Of a stretch of 64,000 nt of DNA, positions 3,148 to 6,980 are shown in pieces. The first letter of the stretch is position 1; every line of letters begins with the position of its first letter. The notes under the pieces were generated by a model that was not told where the DNA came from, searched no databases, and worked only from the letters and a program-made list of their open reading frames with translations. The stretch covers positions 2,760 through 66,759 of the forward strand of contig JAYSTI010000055.1 in NCBI GenBank assembly GCA_043719805.1. The letters are read 5' to 3'. Source of the DNA: Candidatus Lloydbacteria bacterium (GTDB taxonomy: Bacteria; Patescibacteriota; Minisyncoccia; Phycocordibacterales; UBA6899). A program made the position numbers and the translations under genes.

Positions 3148-5466
3148 ATGGCAAAAAAAATAAAAAAGCGAATAGAGAAGAATGGGGAGAAAAAAGAGCG
3201 AAAGAATAACGCTGACTCCACATCAAAAAAGAAAGGGCTCTGGGGAGGACTCCGCGAGGAGACGAGAAATTCTATCATTGGAATTTTGATGTTCATCGTC
3301 GCGGTGGTGTTGCTCTTTTCTGCAATCGGGAACGGCGGGAAACTTGGCGGGACTGTCTACAAGGGAATTCATTTTTTGTTCGGGCTCGGCTACTACGTCG
3401 TGCCGCTTCTCTTTGTGCTTCTCGGCATCAACTTCTTTCGTGCAAGAGAGCGTAGCTTCGCAATGCCCGCGCTTGTGGCAGGGCCATTCTTTATTCTGTC
3501 AGCACTTGGATTGCTTTCGGAAATGAGCATAGCGAGTGGAACTTTGGGATACGGTGGATTCGTCGGCTACTACATTGCGATGCCGATGATAGCACTCTTT
3601 GCCTCCACTCTCACCGCAATCATGCTTGTGACGGTACTCCTCATCGCAGTACTGATTCTCTTTGATATGCCGCTGCATCTTGGGTTTGTACTTTCATTAT
3701 TTAAATTATTGCGCCCGACGAAGCGCGACGAGCTTGTCGGCGATGAGATCGATACAAGCATCGACCCTGAGGAAGCTGCGACCGTGACTATCTCGCTCAA
3801 AAATCCGCCGATAGAGGCGGAGGTTCCTGATGTGGGAGAGATCTCTCCGGCGCCAAAGGCATCGCTTTTTGCGAAGACAAACAAGACTGAGGCAAAAGTA
3901 AGAGCCGACGATGTGCCGTTCCGCTTCAACTCGACACTCCACTCCACATACATTCCTCCCCCGCTCGCACTCCTTGCGCACGATAAGGGAAAGCCGGGAT
4001 TTGGGGACATCAAGGCGAATGCGAACATCATCAAGCGTTCGTTTCAGAACTTCGGCATCCACGTCGAAATGGACGAGGTGTCGGTCGGGCCATCCATCAC
4101 GCGCTATGCGCTCAAGCCAGCAGAGGGAGTGCGCCTTTCGAAGATAACGACACTCCAACACGACCTCGAGCTTGCGCTTGCCGCGGCTCCTATTCGCATC
4201 GAGGCGCCCATCCCGGGGAAATCGCTCGTGGGTATTGAAATGCCGAACACCACAAAGTCGACGGTTGGCCTCGGGACGCTTCTCGCAGAAGCAGAGTGGG
4301 CGGCGAATCCGAATCCACTTTATGTCCCCCTAGGAAAAGGCATCTCCGGACAAGCGCAATTCATGAATATCGCAAAGATGCCGCACGTCATGGTCGCAGG
4401 GGCAACTGGCTCGGGAAAGTCTGTGACGATGCACACCATCATTACCGCGCTGCTGTACAGAAATTCCCCGGAGCTACTGCGCTTCATCATGGTGGACCCA
4501 AAACGCGTTGAGCTTACCCTCTATAATGGTATCCCCCACCTCCTTACCCCAGTCGTGACCGAAGCAAAGAAGGCCATTCTCACACTCAAGTGGGCCACAA
4601 AAGAGATGGACAGACGATATGACGTACTTCAAGAAAACAAAGTGCGAGATGTCGCTTCGTACCATAAAACGATTCTTCAACCGGCGCTTGAAAAATTTGA
4701 GAAACAAAAGGCGGAAGGAAAGATCGGTGAGGGAGAGGAGCCGGAACTGCCGGAACTCATGCCATATATTGTCATAATCATCGATGAATTGGCGGACCTC
4801 ATGTCGGCATATCCTCGCGAGCTTGAGGCGGCCATTGTGCGATTGGCGCAGATGAGCCGCGCTGTGGGAATACATTTGATGATTGCGACACAGCGACCAT
4901 CGGTCAACGTCATCACGGGACTCATCAAGGCAAATATCCCCGCTCGTATCGCACTACAGGTCGCGTCACAGATAGATTCGCGCACCATTCTTGATACATC
5001 GGGAGCGGAAAATCTGTTGGGTGCGGGCGACATGCTTTATCTTTCTGCGGAAATGCCGAAACCTATCCGTCTACAGTCCGCGTTTATTTCCGAGAACGAA
5101 GTGAAGAACGTCGTGAAATTCCTTAAGGATCACTACGACGGGACTTTGGGCGATGAGATAAATGTCACGAAAGATACCGAAAACAGGAACGCCTACTTTG
5201 ACGGCATCCCCGAGGGTGAGATATCGCCGGACAATGACGATGAAGGGGAAGATGACAAATATGATGCGGCAAAAGAACTCGTGATGAAGGAGGGCAAGGC
5301 TTCGACGTCATATTTGCAACGACGACTCGGACTCGGATATGCGCGCGCAGCACGCATCATGGATATTCTTGAGGAAAAAGGAGTAATCGGGCCGGGCGAG
5401 GGGGCGAAACCGCGAACAGTATTGCAGCGAAATGGAGATGAAGGGTTTGGGCGCGAGCCAGAATAG
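3148..5466 (+). CDS. ftsK: DNA translocase FtsK/SpoIIIE
   Basis: N-terminal TM helices, Walker A MVAGATGSGKSV, an FtsK motor region and a C-terminal gamma winged-helix (TSYLQRRLGLGYARAARIMDILEEKGVIGP). Confidence 0.9.
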   Translation: MAKKIKKRIEKNGEKKERKNNADSTSKKKGLWGGLREETRNSIIGILMFIVAVVLLFSAIGNGGKLGGTVYKGIHFLFGLGYYVVPLLFVLLGINFFRARERSFAMPALVAGPFFILSALGLLSEMSIASGTLGYGGFVGYYIAMPMIALFASTLTAIMLVTVLLIAVLILFDMPLHLGFVLSLFKLLRPTKRDELVGDEIDTSIDPEEAATVTISLKNPPIEAEVPDVGEISPAPKASLFAKTNKTEAKVRADDVPFRFNSTLHSTYIPPPLALLAHDKGKPGFGDIKANANIIKRSFQNFGIHVEMDEVSVGPSITRYALKPAEGVRLSKITTLQHDLELALAAAPIRIEAPIPGKSLVGIEMPNTTKSTVGLGTLLAEAEWAANPNPLYVPLGKGISGQAQFMNIAKMPHVMVAGATGSGKSVTMHTIITALLYRNSPELLRFIMVDPKRVELTLYNGIPHLLTPVVTEAKKAILTLKWATKEMDRRYDVLQENKVRDVASYHKTILQPALEKFEKQKAEGKIGEGEEPELPELMPYIVIIIDELADLMSAYPRELEAAIVRLAQMSRAVGIHLMIATQRPSVNVITGLIKANIPARIALQVASQIDSRTILDTSGAENLLGAGDMLYLSAEMPKPIRLQSAFISENEVKNVVKFLKDHYDGTLGDEINVTKDTENRNAYFDGIPEGEISPDNDDEGEDDKYDAAKELVMKEGKASTSYLQRRLGLGYARAARIMDILEEKGVIGPGEGAKPRTVLQRNGDEGFGREPE

Positions 5467-5502
5467 CGCTCGGGCTATCGTGTTTTGAAACTCATGTCAG
5501 TC

Positions 5503-5563
5503 GTCGTACCAACGCAGTACACCTTTTGGCTATTCCAGAAAATAGCTCAAAAGGTCTTGCGCC
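5503..5563. repeat. Copy 1 of an approximately 60-nt direct repeat with an internal hairpin (CCTTTTGG...CTATT/AATAG...CAAAAGG)
   Basis: cgtaccaacgcaGTACACCTTTTGGctattccagaaaatagCTCAAAAGGTCTTGCGCc. The outer stem CCTTTTG/CAAAAGG and inner stem CTATT/AATAG are read directly from the sequence. Confidence 0.5.
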
Positions 5564-5670
5564 ACTCGCCCATCAGAATGGGACCCTCAATCGTGGCTCA
5601 CCCCAGCCGGCGACTGCATTCTCTCTCGAAGGAAAATCCTGCCTCGGAAGGCAGGAACCATGCTTTTCCC

Positions 5671-5730
5671 TCCGTACCGGAGCTGTACACCTTTTGGAGA
5701 TTTCTGAAAATCTCTCAAAAGGTCTTGCGC
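5671..5730. repeat. Copy 2 of the same repeat. The inner stem carries compensatory changes (AGATTT/AAATCT).
   Basis: cgtaccggagctGTACACCTTTTGGagatttctgaaaatctcTCAAAAGGTCTTGCGCt. The outer stem is identical to copy 1 and the inner stem covaries. Confidence 0.5.
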
Positions 5731-5839
5731 TGTGGCACCCACAAAGCTGGGTACCCAATAGCCACAGCTCACTCCTCGGCGGTTTCAAAACTCGATAACC
5801 CTCGCCAAAGAGCCTCGTGGACAGAGTGGATAGAGAAAG

Positions 5840-5878
5840 GAAAAAGAAAAAACCGCGCCATCTTGATGGTGCGGTTTT
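5840..5878 (-). terminator. Intrinsic terminator, strongest on the minus strand: a 10-bp stem followed by TTTTTTCTTTTT on the minus strand
   Basis: aaaaagaaaaaACCGCGCCATcttgATGGTGCGGTtttgg. On the minus strand the hairpin immediately follows the stop codon of the small ORF ending at 5881. Confidence 0.5.
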
Positions 5879-5880
5879 GG

Positions 5881-6108
5881 TTAACGCTTGCGGCGGGCGA
5901 CCTGCTTCGCCTTCTTCTTTTGCCGGCGCTTGAGTGCGATGCGAACGGCCGACGCATTTCCCCTCCCATTTTTGGGCGGGCTTTGATTGGGAAAAAGGCT
6001 GTTCCCCAGGTGCAGCAGTGGTGCCGATTGCGCCGCACTGCCCGCAAAAAGCGTTACAGCAAGTGCTGCGATGGACCTGAAAATTGAAAAGTGGGACATC
6101 GGTGCCAT
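5881..6108 (-). CDS. Small (about 75 aa) predicted secreted peptide with a signal peptide (AQSA cleavage-like site) and a highly basic C-terminus (ALKRRQKKKAKQVARRKR)
   Basis: The ORF ends exactly at the strong minus-strand terminator. The start is uncertain (ATG at 6108 with AAGAGGA immediately upstream, or an upstream GTG), and it overlaps the 3' end of the 6114..6539 gene if the longer start is used. Confidence 0.3.
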   Translation of the reverse strand: MAPMSHFSIFRSIAALAVTLFAGSAAQSAPLLHLGNSLFPNQSPPKNGRGNASAVRIALKRRQKKKAKQVARRKR

Positions 6109-6113
6109 TCCTC

Positions 6114-6539
6114 TTAGGCACCCGACACGCACTGAAGAATCGTGTGCGCATAGGCTTCGATTTCAGCAACGCGCCTTTCAGTGAGCCTCATTTCGGCAAG
6201 CTCAGTCTTGGCAAAATCAACGCAAGCGCTGAGTGACGACTGGAGCTCAACAAACACCTTGTCCTCCATTTCACGGAGCGGAGCAAGTACGGCCTCCACG
6301 CGGAGAGCGAAGGCCTCCTGCTCTGCCATGAGGCGCTCCCAAACGGTCTGTGCGTATTCGTTGGCGGAGTTGTTGGCGTACATCTGCCCTCTCGTCAACT
6401 GAAAGTGCACTTCATTGGAGAGGCCGGTTTCTTTGGCCGAAAAACGAGTGATTTGCATTGCGGTTCCTTCTGTTGTGATGTGCGAGAATTCTGACGCAAT
6501 TATGCTTGCTTTCACATATTTGTCAAACAATTTCCGCAC
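6114..6539 (-). CDS. Hypothetical protein (141 aa)
   Basis: Clean ORF with no recognisable motifs. Confidence 0.45.
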   Translation of the reverse strand: MRKLFDKYVKASIIASEFSHITTEGTAMQITRFSAKETGLSNEVHFQLTRGQMYANNSANEYAQTVWERLMAEQEAFALRVEAVLAPLREMEDKVFVELQSSLSACVDFAKTELAEMRLTERRVAEIEAYAHTILQCVSGA

Positions 6540-6608: not shown

Positions 6609-6980
6609 ATGAGACTTACGTTCAAAAAGATACTTTCGGTCGGTTCCGGACTCCTCATTGTCCTAATCATCGTGTTCTATGCGTACTATCAATCCCGCTC
6701 CATCATCGCCGGCCCGATTATCGTGCTCTCGGAACCCGAAAACAATACTACGTCGAAAACCGCACTTATTGTCGTGCGCGGCGTTGCAACACACGCAAAG
6801 GAACTAACGCTTCAGGGGCGGCAGATATTCATCGACCTTGAAGGTAGGTTTGCCGAGCAGTTGTTGCTCTCCCCCGGCTACAATATAATAGAACTCACCG
6901 CACGCGACACCTCGGGAAGACAGATAGTAAAAAATCTCGAACTCGTGTACCAGCCCGTTGCGAGTAGTACGCAAATTTAA
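6609..6980 (+). CDS. Hypothetical membrane-anchored protein (N-terminal TM) immediately upstream of recA
   Basis: N-terminal hydrophobic helix SVGSGLLIVLIIVFYAYY followed by a small soluble domain. It is co-oriented with recA, 23 nt upstream. Confidence 0.5.
   Translation: MRLTFKKILSVGSGLLIVLIIVFYAYYQSRSIIAGPIIVLSEPENNTTSKTALIVVRGVATHAKELTLQGRQIFIDLEGRFAEQLLLSPGYNIIELTARDTSGRQIVKNLELVYQPVASSTQI

What the first reader, a model, noticed from the sequence alone, without database searches (positions are those of the whole stretch)
5503..5730. Two ~60-nt direct repeats downstream of ftsK, each folding into a hairpin whose inner stem covaries
Copy 1 (5503-5563) and copy 2 (5671-5730) share cgtacc-N6-GTACACCTTTTGG ... 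CTCAAAAGGTCTTGCGC. In both copies CCTTTTG pairs with CAAAAGG. The inner stems differ but stay self-complementary in each copy (CTATT/AATAG versus AGATTT/AAATCT). Those are compensatory changes, which argues for selection on a hairpin structure rather than on a protein sequence. A plus-strand ORF (5485-6087) translates both copies as YTFWLFQKIAQKVLR / YTFWRFLKISQKVLR, which is almost certainly an artefact of the repeat. Between the copies sits a further hairpin, CCTGCC-tcggaa-GGCAGG. This could be a REP-like element, a protein-binding site pair, or a small structured RNA in the ftsK 3' region. The motif was not seen elsewhere in the window.
Basis: seen in the sequence. Interest (0 to 1): 0.55.

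Follow-up and report, generated by a model that had tools for sequence, protein, structure and literature searches.

The report
Structured interspersed repeat of Paceibacteria
The two repeats after ftsK are copies of a roughly 105-base, three-hairpin repeat element found at over a hundred sites in Paceibacteria (candidate-phyla-radiation) genomes, apparently undescribed, which behaves like an inserted selfish element and not like a regulator of ftsK.

Summary
Each repeat is a unit of about 105 nt (5498-5604 and 5666-5775) with three hairpins and conserved junctions, and the better-paired strand is the minus strand.

The motif is not unique.

Covariation is very strong: 96% of cells pair, all 33 pairs show changes on both sides, and there are 828 compensatory cells against 200 in shuffles. 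No Rfam family matches. The 200-aa ORF across the repeats has no homologue.

Several results point to insertion:
- The closest relative (FtsK C-terminus 90% identical) runs from the ftsK stop straight into the shared terminator and lacks about 360 nt. An orthologous locus has one copy.
- 80 related ftsK loci have none downstream.
- Elsewhere copies sit inside decayed tRNA duplicates next to the intact tRNA.
- Copies also sit in frame in mnmA (both orientations) and in recG.
- No transposase gene is nearby, and there are no terminal inverted repeats or target-site duplications.

Best reading: a non-autonomous, strand-specific structured mobile repeat that works like REP, RPE and hairpin-ended IS200/IS605 derivatives but is a member of none of them. 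How it moves is unknown.

The parts
5498..5604 (-). Element copy 1. On the + strand the order is P0 hairpin 5502-5514 (CGTCG-TAC-CAACG), linker CAGTAC, P1 hairpin 5521-5555, linker CTTGC, P2 hairpin 5561-5597 with inner hairpin 5569-5582, then TCAC(CCC) 5598-5604.
   Evidence: Covariance model R1 scores 92.3 bits, E 9.5e-22, on the minus strand. The C.A mismatch in P0 on the + strand becomes a G.U pair on the minus strand (read).
5666..5775 (-). Element copy 2. P0 5670-5682 (CTCCG-TAC-CGGAG), linker CTGTAC, P1 5689-5723, linker CTTGC, P2 5729-5768 (GCTGTGGC/GCCACAGC) with inner hairpin 5737-5752, then TCAC 5769-5772.
   Evidence: R1 scores 115.3 bits, E 1.4e-27, on the minus strand. Minus-strand fold is -46.2 kcal/mol, z -4.1.
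5637..5656 (-). On the minus strand it is terminator-like: an 8-bp stem followed by UUUUCCUU, directly after copy 2 as read on the minus strand.
   Evidence: Terminator scan. It is not a conserved feature of the family, because the flanks of the element carry no information.
5472..5491 (.). Left arm of a 20-nt inverted repeat (GGGCTATCGTGTTTTGAAAC) that starts the block absent from the nearest relative.
   Evidence: the repeat finder pair I1, 90% complementary. It occurs only at this locus among all held sequences.
5782..5801 (.). Right arm of the same inverted repeat (GTTTCAAAACTCGATAACCC). Both element copies lie between the two arms.
5472..5830 (.). Block present in the window but absent from the closest relative, L126, where the ftsK stop is followed after about 24 nt by the shared terminator. 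The ends are approximate.
   Evidence: Alignment with L126 and reading of its sequence. L126 FtsK C-terminus is 90% identical.
5849..5878 (.). Two-way intrinsic terminator between ftsK and the convergent small gene. It is conserved in L126 and L128.
   Evidence: Inverted repeat I3. Homologous hairpins are seen in L126 and L128.
3148..5466 (+). ftsK, the upstream neighbour. It is context only.
   Evidence: Pfam FtsK_SpoIIIE, FtsK_alpha and FtsK_gamma.
5881..6132 (-). Convergent 83-aa ORF with a basic tail. It is probably real and is context only.
   Evidence: tblastn hit in L126, 57% over 56 aa, E 2e-11.
5485..6087 (+). Spurious 200-aa ORF that runs through both copies, the terminator and the convergent gene.
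   Evidence: No Pfam hit. Its only match in 5.8e9 proteins is itself. The + strand of the element family is open in all three frames in 63-75% of copies, which explains why such ORFs arise.

Best explanation
The two repeats are copies of a non-autonomous, structured interspersed repeat of Paceibacteria. They arrived at this site by insertion, as part of a block of about 360 nt bounded by a 20-nt inverted repeat.

The unit has sharp ends. Read on the window's minus strand it is 5'-(G)GUGAG, then hairpin P2' (about 8 bp, loop with GGGA, with or without an inner hairpin), GCAAG, hairpin P1' (ACCUUUUG-A-G plus a variable distal stem), GUAC(A/U)G, and hairpin P0' (5 bp with a GUA triloop)-3'.

Shown here:
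- The fold is conserved through compensatory changes across more than 130 copies.
- One strand pairs better than the other.
- Copies are present or absent at orthologous sites.
- Copies lie in intergenic DNA, inside decayed duplicates of tRNA genes, and in frame in coding sequence in either orientation.
- There are no terminal inverted repeats and no target-site duplication. One to four target bases are lost at the junctions.
- No enzyme gene travels with the element.

Inferred:
- The fold is what an enzyme encoded elsewhere recognises on a single-stranded form of the minus strand. My leading guess is single-stranded DNA, as for REP/RAYT and IS200/IS605 ends. An RNA intermediate is the alternative.
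- Lineages that keep the fold are the ones that keep spreading or being copied by gene conversion.
- Hairpin loops and tRNA genes are favoured landing sites.

At this locus the copies most likely do nothing for ftsK. They sit harmlessly between two convergent genes.
For: Family and fold:
Nearly all are labelled Paceibacteria/Patescibacteria or are unclassified MAGs.
- The model finds 136 hits in 100 loci, including about 30 diverged copies.
- 96.4% of cells pair, 33 of 33 pairs change on both sides, and there are 828 compensatory cells against 200+-14 in shuffles and 69-215 in slid controls. On a MAFFT alignment not fitted to the model the figures are 96.3%, 20 of 33 pairs and 158 against 37.
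- Information content starts exactly at P0 and stops 2 nt after CTCAC.

Strand:
- A.C mismatches on the + strand outnumber G.U: 26:4 in P2 and 22:11 in the distal P1 stem. There are also 12 C.A at the fifth P0 pair.

Insertion at this locus:
- L126 (FtsK C-terminus 90% identical) lacks the block.
- L032 (FtsK 78%, RecA 96% identical) has one copy with a different P2.
- None of 80 related ftsK loci has a copy downstream.

Insertion elsewhere:
- The mnmA loop is 23-30 aa when empty, 64 aa with the element, and 72 aa with the element inverted.
- recG carries a copy in frame.
- Copies sit inside pseudo-tRNAs at positions 13/14, 17, 24-26, 39-43 and 52-54, next to the intact tRNA.
- One pair of copies is 99% identical at unrelated loci in the same genome.
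- 7 of 114 copies lie between inverted flanks of 9 nt or more, against about 1 expected.

Other:
- No protein family is shared by more than 7 of 118 loci, and the shared ones are housekeeping genes.
- Metagenome contigs carrying the identical FtsK all end inside copy 2, as expected for a repeat.
- There is a weak bias for the structured strand to be the G-rich strand: 64:42, p 0.04.
Against: - No mobilising enzyme has been identified, and no excision or circle junction has been seen.
- Most copies within a genome are only 65-85% identical. That is unlike a recent burst of a MITE and closer to a gene family or a long-lived REPIN-like population.
- In five mnmA orthologues the element is nearly invariant while flanking codons vary at third positions, and the changes in P0 and P2 are compensatory. 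In L122 a change that removes a stop codon is compensated in the helix. Selection therefore appears to act on the fold in place, which a dead passenger would not show. Gene conversion or repeated re-insertion would have to explain it.
- Most copies were collected with an exact 23-base pattern, so the conservation of P1 is partly an artefact of how they were found.
- No conserved target motif was found at the junctions.
Confidence: 0.6

Rival explanations
1. A family of host small RNAs or cis-acting RNA modules. The minus-strand RNA would be the functional product, for example released from tRNA leaders by RNase P, or acting as a processing, stability or protein-binding module. Its dispersal would be secondary.
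For: - The level of covariation is typical of functional RNAs.
- The pairing bias points to one strand.
- 33 of 38 tRNA-proximal copies are in the same orientation as the tRNA (p 4e-6), and they lie between a promoter-like TGnTATATT and the tRNA.
- The fold is kept in place inside mnmA.
- A terminator-like hairpin follows copy 2 on the minus strand in the window.
Against: - There is no conserved promoter or terminator at any fixed distance. Flank information is about 0 bits.
- Orientation is random with respect to neighbouring protein genes: 30 co-directional, 27 antisense, 17 convergent and 14 divergent.
- Copies sit inside coding sequence and are translated.
- The element is absent from the nearest relative at this locus and from 80 related ftsK loci.
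- Copy number varies widely between genomes.
- No Rfam family matches.
Confidence: 0.2
2. A DNA-level site bound by a host protein, in the manner proposed for REP/BIME sequences (gyrase, IHF, nucleoid or segregation proteins). It would be kept because the host uses it.
For: - The proximal P1 helix is conserved in sequence, not only in pairing, and GTAC recurs in the linker and in loops.
- Copies occur in any transcriptional context.
- Conservation persists inside mnmA.
Against: - A double-stranded DNA site would not give a one-strand excess of G.U-compatible mismatches.
- It would not require three helices of free sequence to covary.
- The element is dispensable at this locus.
- At roughly one site per 64 kb here, and one hit in 342 kb of related loci, it is sparse for an architectural site.
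Confidence: 0.1
3. A small intron, either self-splicing or removed by an enzyme, that invades tRNA and protein genes.
For: - Copies occur in tRNA sequences at several positions, in the same orientation as the tRNA, and in protein genes.
- The core is conserved, the peripheral helices vary, and the ends are sharp, beginning GUGAG on the structured strand.
Against: - The tRNA copies that host the element are truncated pseudogenes beside an intact copy.
- In mnmA and recG the frame stays open through the element in either orientation.
- In L122 the in-frame UGA of the consensus has been removed by a compensated change, which implies that the element is translated and not spliced out.
- In most mnmA genes the structured strand is antisense to the mRNA.
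- No Rfam intron or ribozyme model matches.
Confidence: 0.04
4. The + strand ORF 5485-6087 encodes a real repeat-containing protein.
For: An open frame of 200 codons exists. A sequence 100% identical over 99% of the query is held in the protein collection with NCBI listed as its source.
Against: - It has no homologue other than itself and no Pfam domain.
- It runs across a two-way terminator and a convergent gene that is conserved in L126.
- The region is absent from the nearest relative.
- Substitutions between the two copies preserve base pairing, not amino acids.
Confidence: 0.01

Closest known systems
Rickettsia palindromic elements (RPE; Ogata et al. 2000, recalled from my own knowledge, not read here)
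   Same: Both are structured repeats of about 100-150 nt in a reduced genome with no transposase of their own. Both are found in intergenic DNA, in RNA genes, and in frame inside protein-coding genes, where they are translated as extra loops.
   Different: The host phylum differs and the sequences were not compared. This element has three helices that covary independently, conserved junction bases and a clear strand asymmetry. It sits repeatedly inside tRNA duplicates and is shared across many Paceibacteria lineages, not a single genus.
REP / BIME / REPIN elements with their RAYT transposases (PMC2817692, PMC3116915 and PMC3733652 appeared in search results; only their abstracts were seen)
   Same: Both are short structured repeats with a conserved tetranucleotide next to a hairpin. 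Both persist as long-lived populations within a genome in which the hairpin is maintained. Both are thought to be handled as single-stranded DNA by an enzyme encoded elsewhere, and both often occur in tandem clusters.
   Different: REPs are single palindromes of 20-40 nt tagged GTAG or CGTC, strictly extragenic, and present in hundreds of copies. This element is 85-110 nt with three hairpins, carries GTAC, also occurs inside genes, and has far fewer copies. No RAYT was seen in 118 loci.
Non-autonomous derivatives of IS200/IS605 (palindrome-associated transposable elements); mechanism recalled from Barabas 2008 and Ton-Hoang 2010, my own knowledge
   Same: Neither has terminal inverted repeats or a target-site duplication. 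Both have hairpins close to both ends and one active strand. There is a weak bias here for that strand to be the G-rich one, which is the lagging-strand template.
   Different: No conserved target tetra- or pentanucleotide lies beside the left end. One to four target bases are lost at the junctions. No TnpA or TnpB gene is nearby. The middle hairpin is the most conserved part.
Classical bacterial MITEs, for example the Coxiella QMITEs (PMC5896051, seen in search results)
   Same: Both are small, non-autonomous and dispersed, and both can lie inside ORFs and small RNA genes.
   Different: MITEs are defined by terminal inverted repeats and target-site duplications. Neither is present in the unit. 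Only the 330-nt block in this window has 20-nt inverted ends.

Membership tests
REP / BIME | A single imperfect palindrome of 20-40 nt | tested here: not met
   The unit is 85-110 nt with three separate helices.
REP / BIME | A conserved GTAG or CGTC tetranucleotide at one end of the palindrome | tested here: not met
   The conserved linker is C(A/T)GTAC on the + strand, GUAC(A/U)G on the minus strand. There is no GTAG or CGTC.
REP / BIME | Strictly extragenic location | tested here: not met
   Copies lie in frame in mnmA and recG.
REP / BIME | A RAYT (Y1 HUH transposase) gene in the genome, typically flanked by REPs | not tested
   No recurrent ORF was found near 118 loci. Whole genomes could not be scanned with these tools.
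Rickettsia palindromic elements | In-frame insertion into protein-coding genes, with the frame kept open | tested here: met
   This is seen in mnmA (64-aa against 23-30-aa loop, both orientations) and in recG.
Rickettsia palindromic elements | Sequence homology to RPE families | not tested
The hosts belong to unrelated phyla.
MITE | Terminal inverted repeats | tested here: not met
   The ends of the unit (the P0 stem and CTCAC) are not inverted copies of one another. Only the composite block in the window has 20-nt inverted ends.
MITE | Target-site duplication | tested here: not met
   Filled and intact tRNA copies compared side by side show no duplication and a loss of 1-4 nt (reading).
IS200/IS605-derived hairpin elements | No terminal inverted repeats, no target-site duplication, hairpins near the ends, one active strand | tested here: met
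IS200/IS605-derived hairpin elements | Insertion 3' of a fixed tetra- or pentanucleotide that abuts the left end | tested here: not met
   Flank information is about 0 bits on both sides. The ten junctions read by eye share no motif.
IS200/IS605-derived hairpin elements | A cognate TnpA (Y1) gene in the genome | not tested
   None was seen near the copies. Whole genomes were not available.
Described structured RNA family (Rfam) | A match to a curated covariance model | tested here: not met
   There were 0 hits at gathering score in the window. The best sub-threshold hit over the region had E 0.2, to an unrelated hairpin.
Group I, group II or bulge-helix-bulge intron | Removal restores a functional host gene, so the frame inside the intron is not constrained | tested here: not met
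   The host tRNAs are truncated. The frames are kept open, and in L122 a consensus stop codon has been repaired.

The most novel reading that the evidence does not exclude
This is a previously undescribed class of strand-specific mobile element, or mobile RNA, of the candidate phyla radiation. It would spread without a linked enzyme gene, land preferentially in hairpin loops and in tRNA genes in the tRNA's own orientation, and leave a decayed tRNA copy beside an intact one. Its three-helix fold would be maintained by selection even inside protein-coding genes. That would imply either a new single-strand DNA or RNA mobilisation pathway or a host-domesticated function of the fold.
Probability: 0.3. 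Interest if true: 0.8.

Novelty: new variant of a known kind. Interest (0 to 1): 0.6.

Why it matters
Paceibacteria have very small, gene-dense genomes, and little is known about their mobile DNA or non-coding RNA. A conserved element with strong covariation would be a new handle on genome dynamics in this large uncultured group. The element recurs across many lineages, marks tRNA genes with decayed duplicates, and is tolerated inside enzymes such as MnmA and RecG.

There are practical consequences too:
- It breaks assemblies. Three independent contigs end inside copy 2.
- It generates spurious ORFs. A protein matching the one here is held in the collection with NCBI as its source.
- It adds 30-40-aa loops to real proteins, which could be misread as lineage-specific domains.

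If the fold turns out to be recognised by a new enzyme or to act as an RNA, the covariance model built here gives a ready search tool.

Tried and rejected
- **Rfam.** Scans at gathering score and at E up to 10 gave nothing relevant.
- **tRNA intron.** This was suggested by tRNA halves abutting copies in L094 and L108. It was rejected because the host tRNAs are truncated and an intact copy lies beside them.
- **Promoter in the element.** Hexamers read by eye do not fit, and no conserved spacing to tRNAs exists (18-54 nt).
- **A linked transposase, integrase or reverse transcriptase.** All-against-all clustering of 877 ORFs from the loci found only housekeeping neighbours.
- **Phage origin.** There were 0 matches in viral contigs.
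- **P0 5' half derived from the target (IS608-style guide pairing).** Rejected because the empty tRNA sites do not contain it (reading).
- **Conserved target motif, or CACC direct repeats as ends.** These were not consistent across junctions.
- **Conserved 3' extension after CTCAC.** It is seen in the window and a few loci but not across the family.
- **Looking up the annotated ORF product (P0001) to name the source contig.** It is not on record.
- **Literature.** Five searches found no description of such an element in Patescibacteria.
- **Single-sequence folding.** It cannot tell the strands apart, because both fold well.

Full report
**1. The observation**

Two direct copies lie at 5505-5562 and 5673-5730, 83% identical and 168 nt apart. 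They share GTACACCTTTTGG and CTCAAAAGGTCTTGCGC. Their inner stems differ but stay self-complementary, and a CCTGCC/GGCAGG hairpin lies between them.

The description is incomplete in three ways:
- Similarity extends to about 118 nt per copy.
- After CTTGC comes a second hairpin that also differs compensatorily between the copies: GCCAC/GTGGC against GCTGTGGC/GCCACAGC, each with an inner CCCA/TGGG hairpin. It is followed by TCAC.
- The upstream 'cgtacc' is the loop region of a third small hairpin (5502-5514 and 5670-5682).

**2. It is a large family**

Nearly all come from Paceibacteria/Parcubacteria-type MAGs (Lloyd-, Taylor-, Nomura-, Kaiser-, Yonath- and Zambryskibacteria), from unclassified 'MAG: bacterium' records, or from MAGs labelled 'uncultured Candidatus Saccharibacteria'. 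One is labelled Doudnabacteria and one Azotimanducaceae. Several genomes contribute 5-9 loci.

All copies share one plan. On the + strand this is:
- a 5-bp hairpin with a TAC loop,
- C(A/T)GTA,
- a long hairpin whose base is ACCTTTTGG/C-T-CAAAAGGT and whose distal stem is free to vary,
- CTTGC,
- a third hairpin of free sequence, in a short or a long form,
- then (C)TCAC(C).

Position-wise information begins exactly at the first hairpin and ends two bases after CTCAC, so the unit has sharp ends and is 85-110 nt long. Rfam has nothing like it.

**3. Structure and strand**

I aligned 39 long-form copies with MAFFT, independently of any model. On that alignment 96.3% of cells form standard pairs, and 20 of 33 pairs change on both sides. 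There are 158 compensatory cells, against 37+-4 in shuffles and 10-33 when partners are slid.

A covariance model built from this alignment (R1) found 136 hits in 100 loci, including about 30 diverged copies that the exact pattern had missed. On that model-fitted alignment all 33 pairs show changes on both sides, with 828 compensatory cells against 200+-14.

Mismatches are asymmetric. The fifth pair of the small hairpin is C.A in 12 copies. All of these become G.U on the opposite strand. The strand that is selected to fold is therefore the window's minus strand. Folding single sequences cannot show this, because both strands fold well.

A caveat applies. Most copies were collected with an exact 23-base pattern, so the invariance of the proximal helix is partly built in. 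The covariation in the other helices is not.

**4. This locus**

R1 with filters off finds only the two copies in the 64 kb: 115 and 92 bits on the minus strand.

- **No copy.** A metagenome scan with the FtsK C-terminus returned 80 related loci. The model finds no copy downstream of ftsK in any of them, and only one hit in 342 kb. In the closest, L126 (90% identical over the FtsK C-terminus), the ftsK stop codon is followed after about 24 nt by the same two-way terminator and the same convergent small gene as in the window. L128 also runs from the stop codon into a terminator-like hairpin.
- **One copy.** L032 is an orthologous locus (FtsK 78%, RecA 96% identical). It has a single copy with a short third hairpin and flanks that cannot be aligned.
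- **Two copies.** The window therefore carries an extra block of about 360 nt (roughly 5472-5830). The block begins and ends with a 20-nt inverted repeat (5472-5491 and 5782-5801), and both copies lie inside it.

Zero, one and two copies at one site, together with the absence from 80 related ftsK loci, rule out a conserved role at the ftsK 3' end. Three metagenome contigs that encode the identical FtsK all end inside copy 2, as expected for a repeat.

The + strand ORF across the region has no homologue but itself. It is explained by a property of the family: the + strand is free of stop codons in all three frames in 63-75% of copies.

**5. Contexts elsewhere**

*tRNA genes.* About 38 copies lie within a few hundred bases of a tRNA gene, and in 33 of them the structured strand is the tRNA's strand (p 4e-6). 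Read in that orientation, the element sits inside a decayed second copy of the same tRNA, 20-60 nt from the intact gene. The position differs from case to case:

| Position in the tRNA | tRNA | Loci |
|---|---|---|
| 13/14 | Pro | L111 |
| 17 | Ser-GGA | L113, L064, L098, L023 |
| 24-26 | Asn, Cys | L099, L038, L006, L040 |
| 39-43 | Glu, Arg | L104, L039 |
| 52-54 | Gly-CCC | L117, L118, L092 |

Comparing the filled and intact copies shows no target duplication and a loss of 1-4 target bases. In L094 and L108 the element lies in the opposite orientation within tRNA-Glu fragments.

*Coding sequence.* In mnmA the loop between GHYA and KDQSYF takes several forms:
- 23-30 aa in 'empty' genes,
- 64 aa with the element (+ strand in sense),
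- 72 aa with the element inverted (L122, model score 57.7 bits on the sense strand),
- 53-55 aa in variants that carry a mini-hairpin.

recG of L086 carries a copy in frame.

*Other contexts.* Orientation is random with respect to neighbouring protein genes. Seven of 114 copies lie between inverted flanks of 9 nt or more, against about one expected, as does the pair in the window.

No ORF family recurs near the copies. The most frequent neighbours are RF2, IF2, IleRS, PilB, the CCA-adding enzyme and PolA. There were no viral matches.

**6. What it most likely is**

The variable occupancy, the insertions into genes and tRNA copies, the sharp ends, the tandem and nested arrangements, and one 99%-identical pair at unrelated loci of the same genome all mark an element that has moved. 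The lack of any linked enzyme makes it non-autonomous.

The one-strand fold, the absence of inverted ends and target duplication, the preference for hairpin loops, and a weak tendency for the structured strand to be the G-rich strand (64:42) fit best with an element handled as single-stranded DNA by an enzyme encoded elsewhere. REP/RAYT and IS200/IS605 ends work this way. That step is inference, and an RNA intermediate is not excluded.

**7. What does not fit a simple selfish passenger**

- Copies within a genome are mostly old, at 65-85% identity, yet they still fold.
- In five mnmA orthologues the element is almost invariant while flanking codons vary at third positions, and the changes in two helices are compensatory.
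- In L122 the consensus UUUUGAG would give an in-frame UGA. It reads UUUUUAG instead, with the partner base changed to match.
- The same site can hold a long-form or a short-form copy in related genomes: window against L032, and L113 against L064.

Either the fold is under selection where it sits, through a host or element function, or copies are regularly overwritten by conversion or re-insertion. This keeps the RNA-function rival alive at about 0.2.

Against that rival stand the lack of any conserved promoter or terminator, the random orientation to protein genes, translation through the element, and its dispensability at this locus.

An intron is unlikely. The host tRNAs are truncated, the frames are kept open, and in most mnmA genes the structured strand is antisense to the mRNA.

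**8. Comparison with known elements, and novelty**

The element works like RPEs (in-frame insertions in a reduced genome), like REP/REPIN populations (maintained hairpins and an enzyme acting in trans), and like hairpin-ended IS200/IS605 derivatives. It fails the defining tests of REP (size, tag, extragenic location), of MITEs (inverted ends, target duplication), and of IS200/IS605 derivatives (a fixed target motif).

Five literature searches found no description of it in Patescibacteria, and Rfam 15 has no model for it. I rate it a new variant of a known kind, the structured interspersed repeat. There is a real chance, about 0.3, that the mobilisation route or a function of the fold is new.

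Noticed in passing
L122:489-586, L123, L124, L125 (mnmA genes); proteins P0002-P0121: The MnmA loop between GHYA and KDQSYF is an insertion hot spot in Nomurabacteria-type genomes. It is empty at 23-30 aa. It carries the element in either orientation, or shorter mini-hairpin variants (CCGTTTTTGG-GTAC-..CAAAAACGG) in either orientation. Several other unrelated-looking 43-60-aa inserts also occur, for example SPLLVEEGVGGG... and NLISPCQGGVPE....
   Followed up: partly
L117:3740-4300, L040:5050-5480, L111, L039, L121, L098 (regions downstream of tRNA genes): Many Paceibacteria tRNA genes are followed by a terminator hairpin. After that comes a reverse-complement copy of the tRNA's own 3' end, often split by a GAAAG..CUUUC hairpin, and then a direct copy of the 3' end preceded by a degenerate element. 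tRNA neighbourhoods look like graveyards of tRNA fragments.
   Followed up: partly
window 6114-6539 (minus strand): This 141-aa ORF has no Pfam hit and no counterpart in L126, L032 or the other related ftsK loci, where the conserved 123-aa gene (window 6609-6980) follows much sooner. It may be a second window-specific insertion.
   Followed up: partly
window 5485-6087: A protein 100% identical to this spurious ORF over 99% of its length (P0001, 197 aa, contig of 121,222 nt) is held in the protein collection with NCBI as its source. The element family tends to create such false genes because its + strand lacks stop codons.
   Followed up: yes
L015:1167-4802: An isoleucyl-tRNA synthetase-like ORF of 1211 aa has a histidine phosphatase (His_Phos_1) domain embedded at residues 555-716.
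   Followed up: no
L062 (JBLHGD010000009.1): A contig labelled Candidatus Azotimanducaceae carries a typical element next to a tRNA-Thr. This may be a mis-binned Paceibacteria contig or a transfer.
   Followed up: no
L076:5750-6250, L071:6140-6360, L082:4330-4560: These loci hold composite and rearranged copies. The first hairpin is separated from the second by an insert of about 90 nt, and a further recurrent module (..CGCCTCGC-hairpin-CGCTCCGGCTTTCGAATCC) follows CTCAC in a subset of loci (L101, L102, L105, L109, L115, L027). Its end resembles a reversed T-arm.
   Followed up: no
L109:4101-4189 and L115:5727-5815: Two copies in one genome (RS_8_2) are 99% identical and have unrelated flanks. 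This is the only clear sign of recent copying in the sample.
   Followed up: partly
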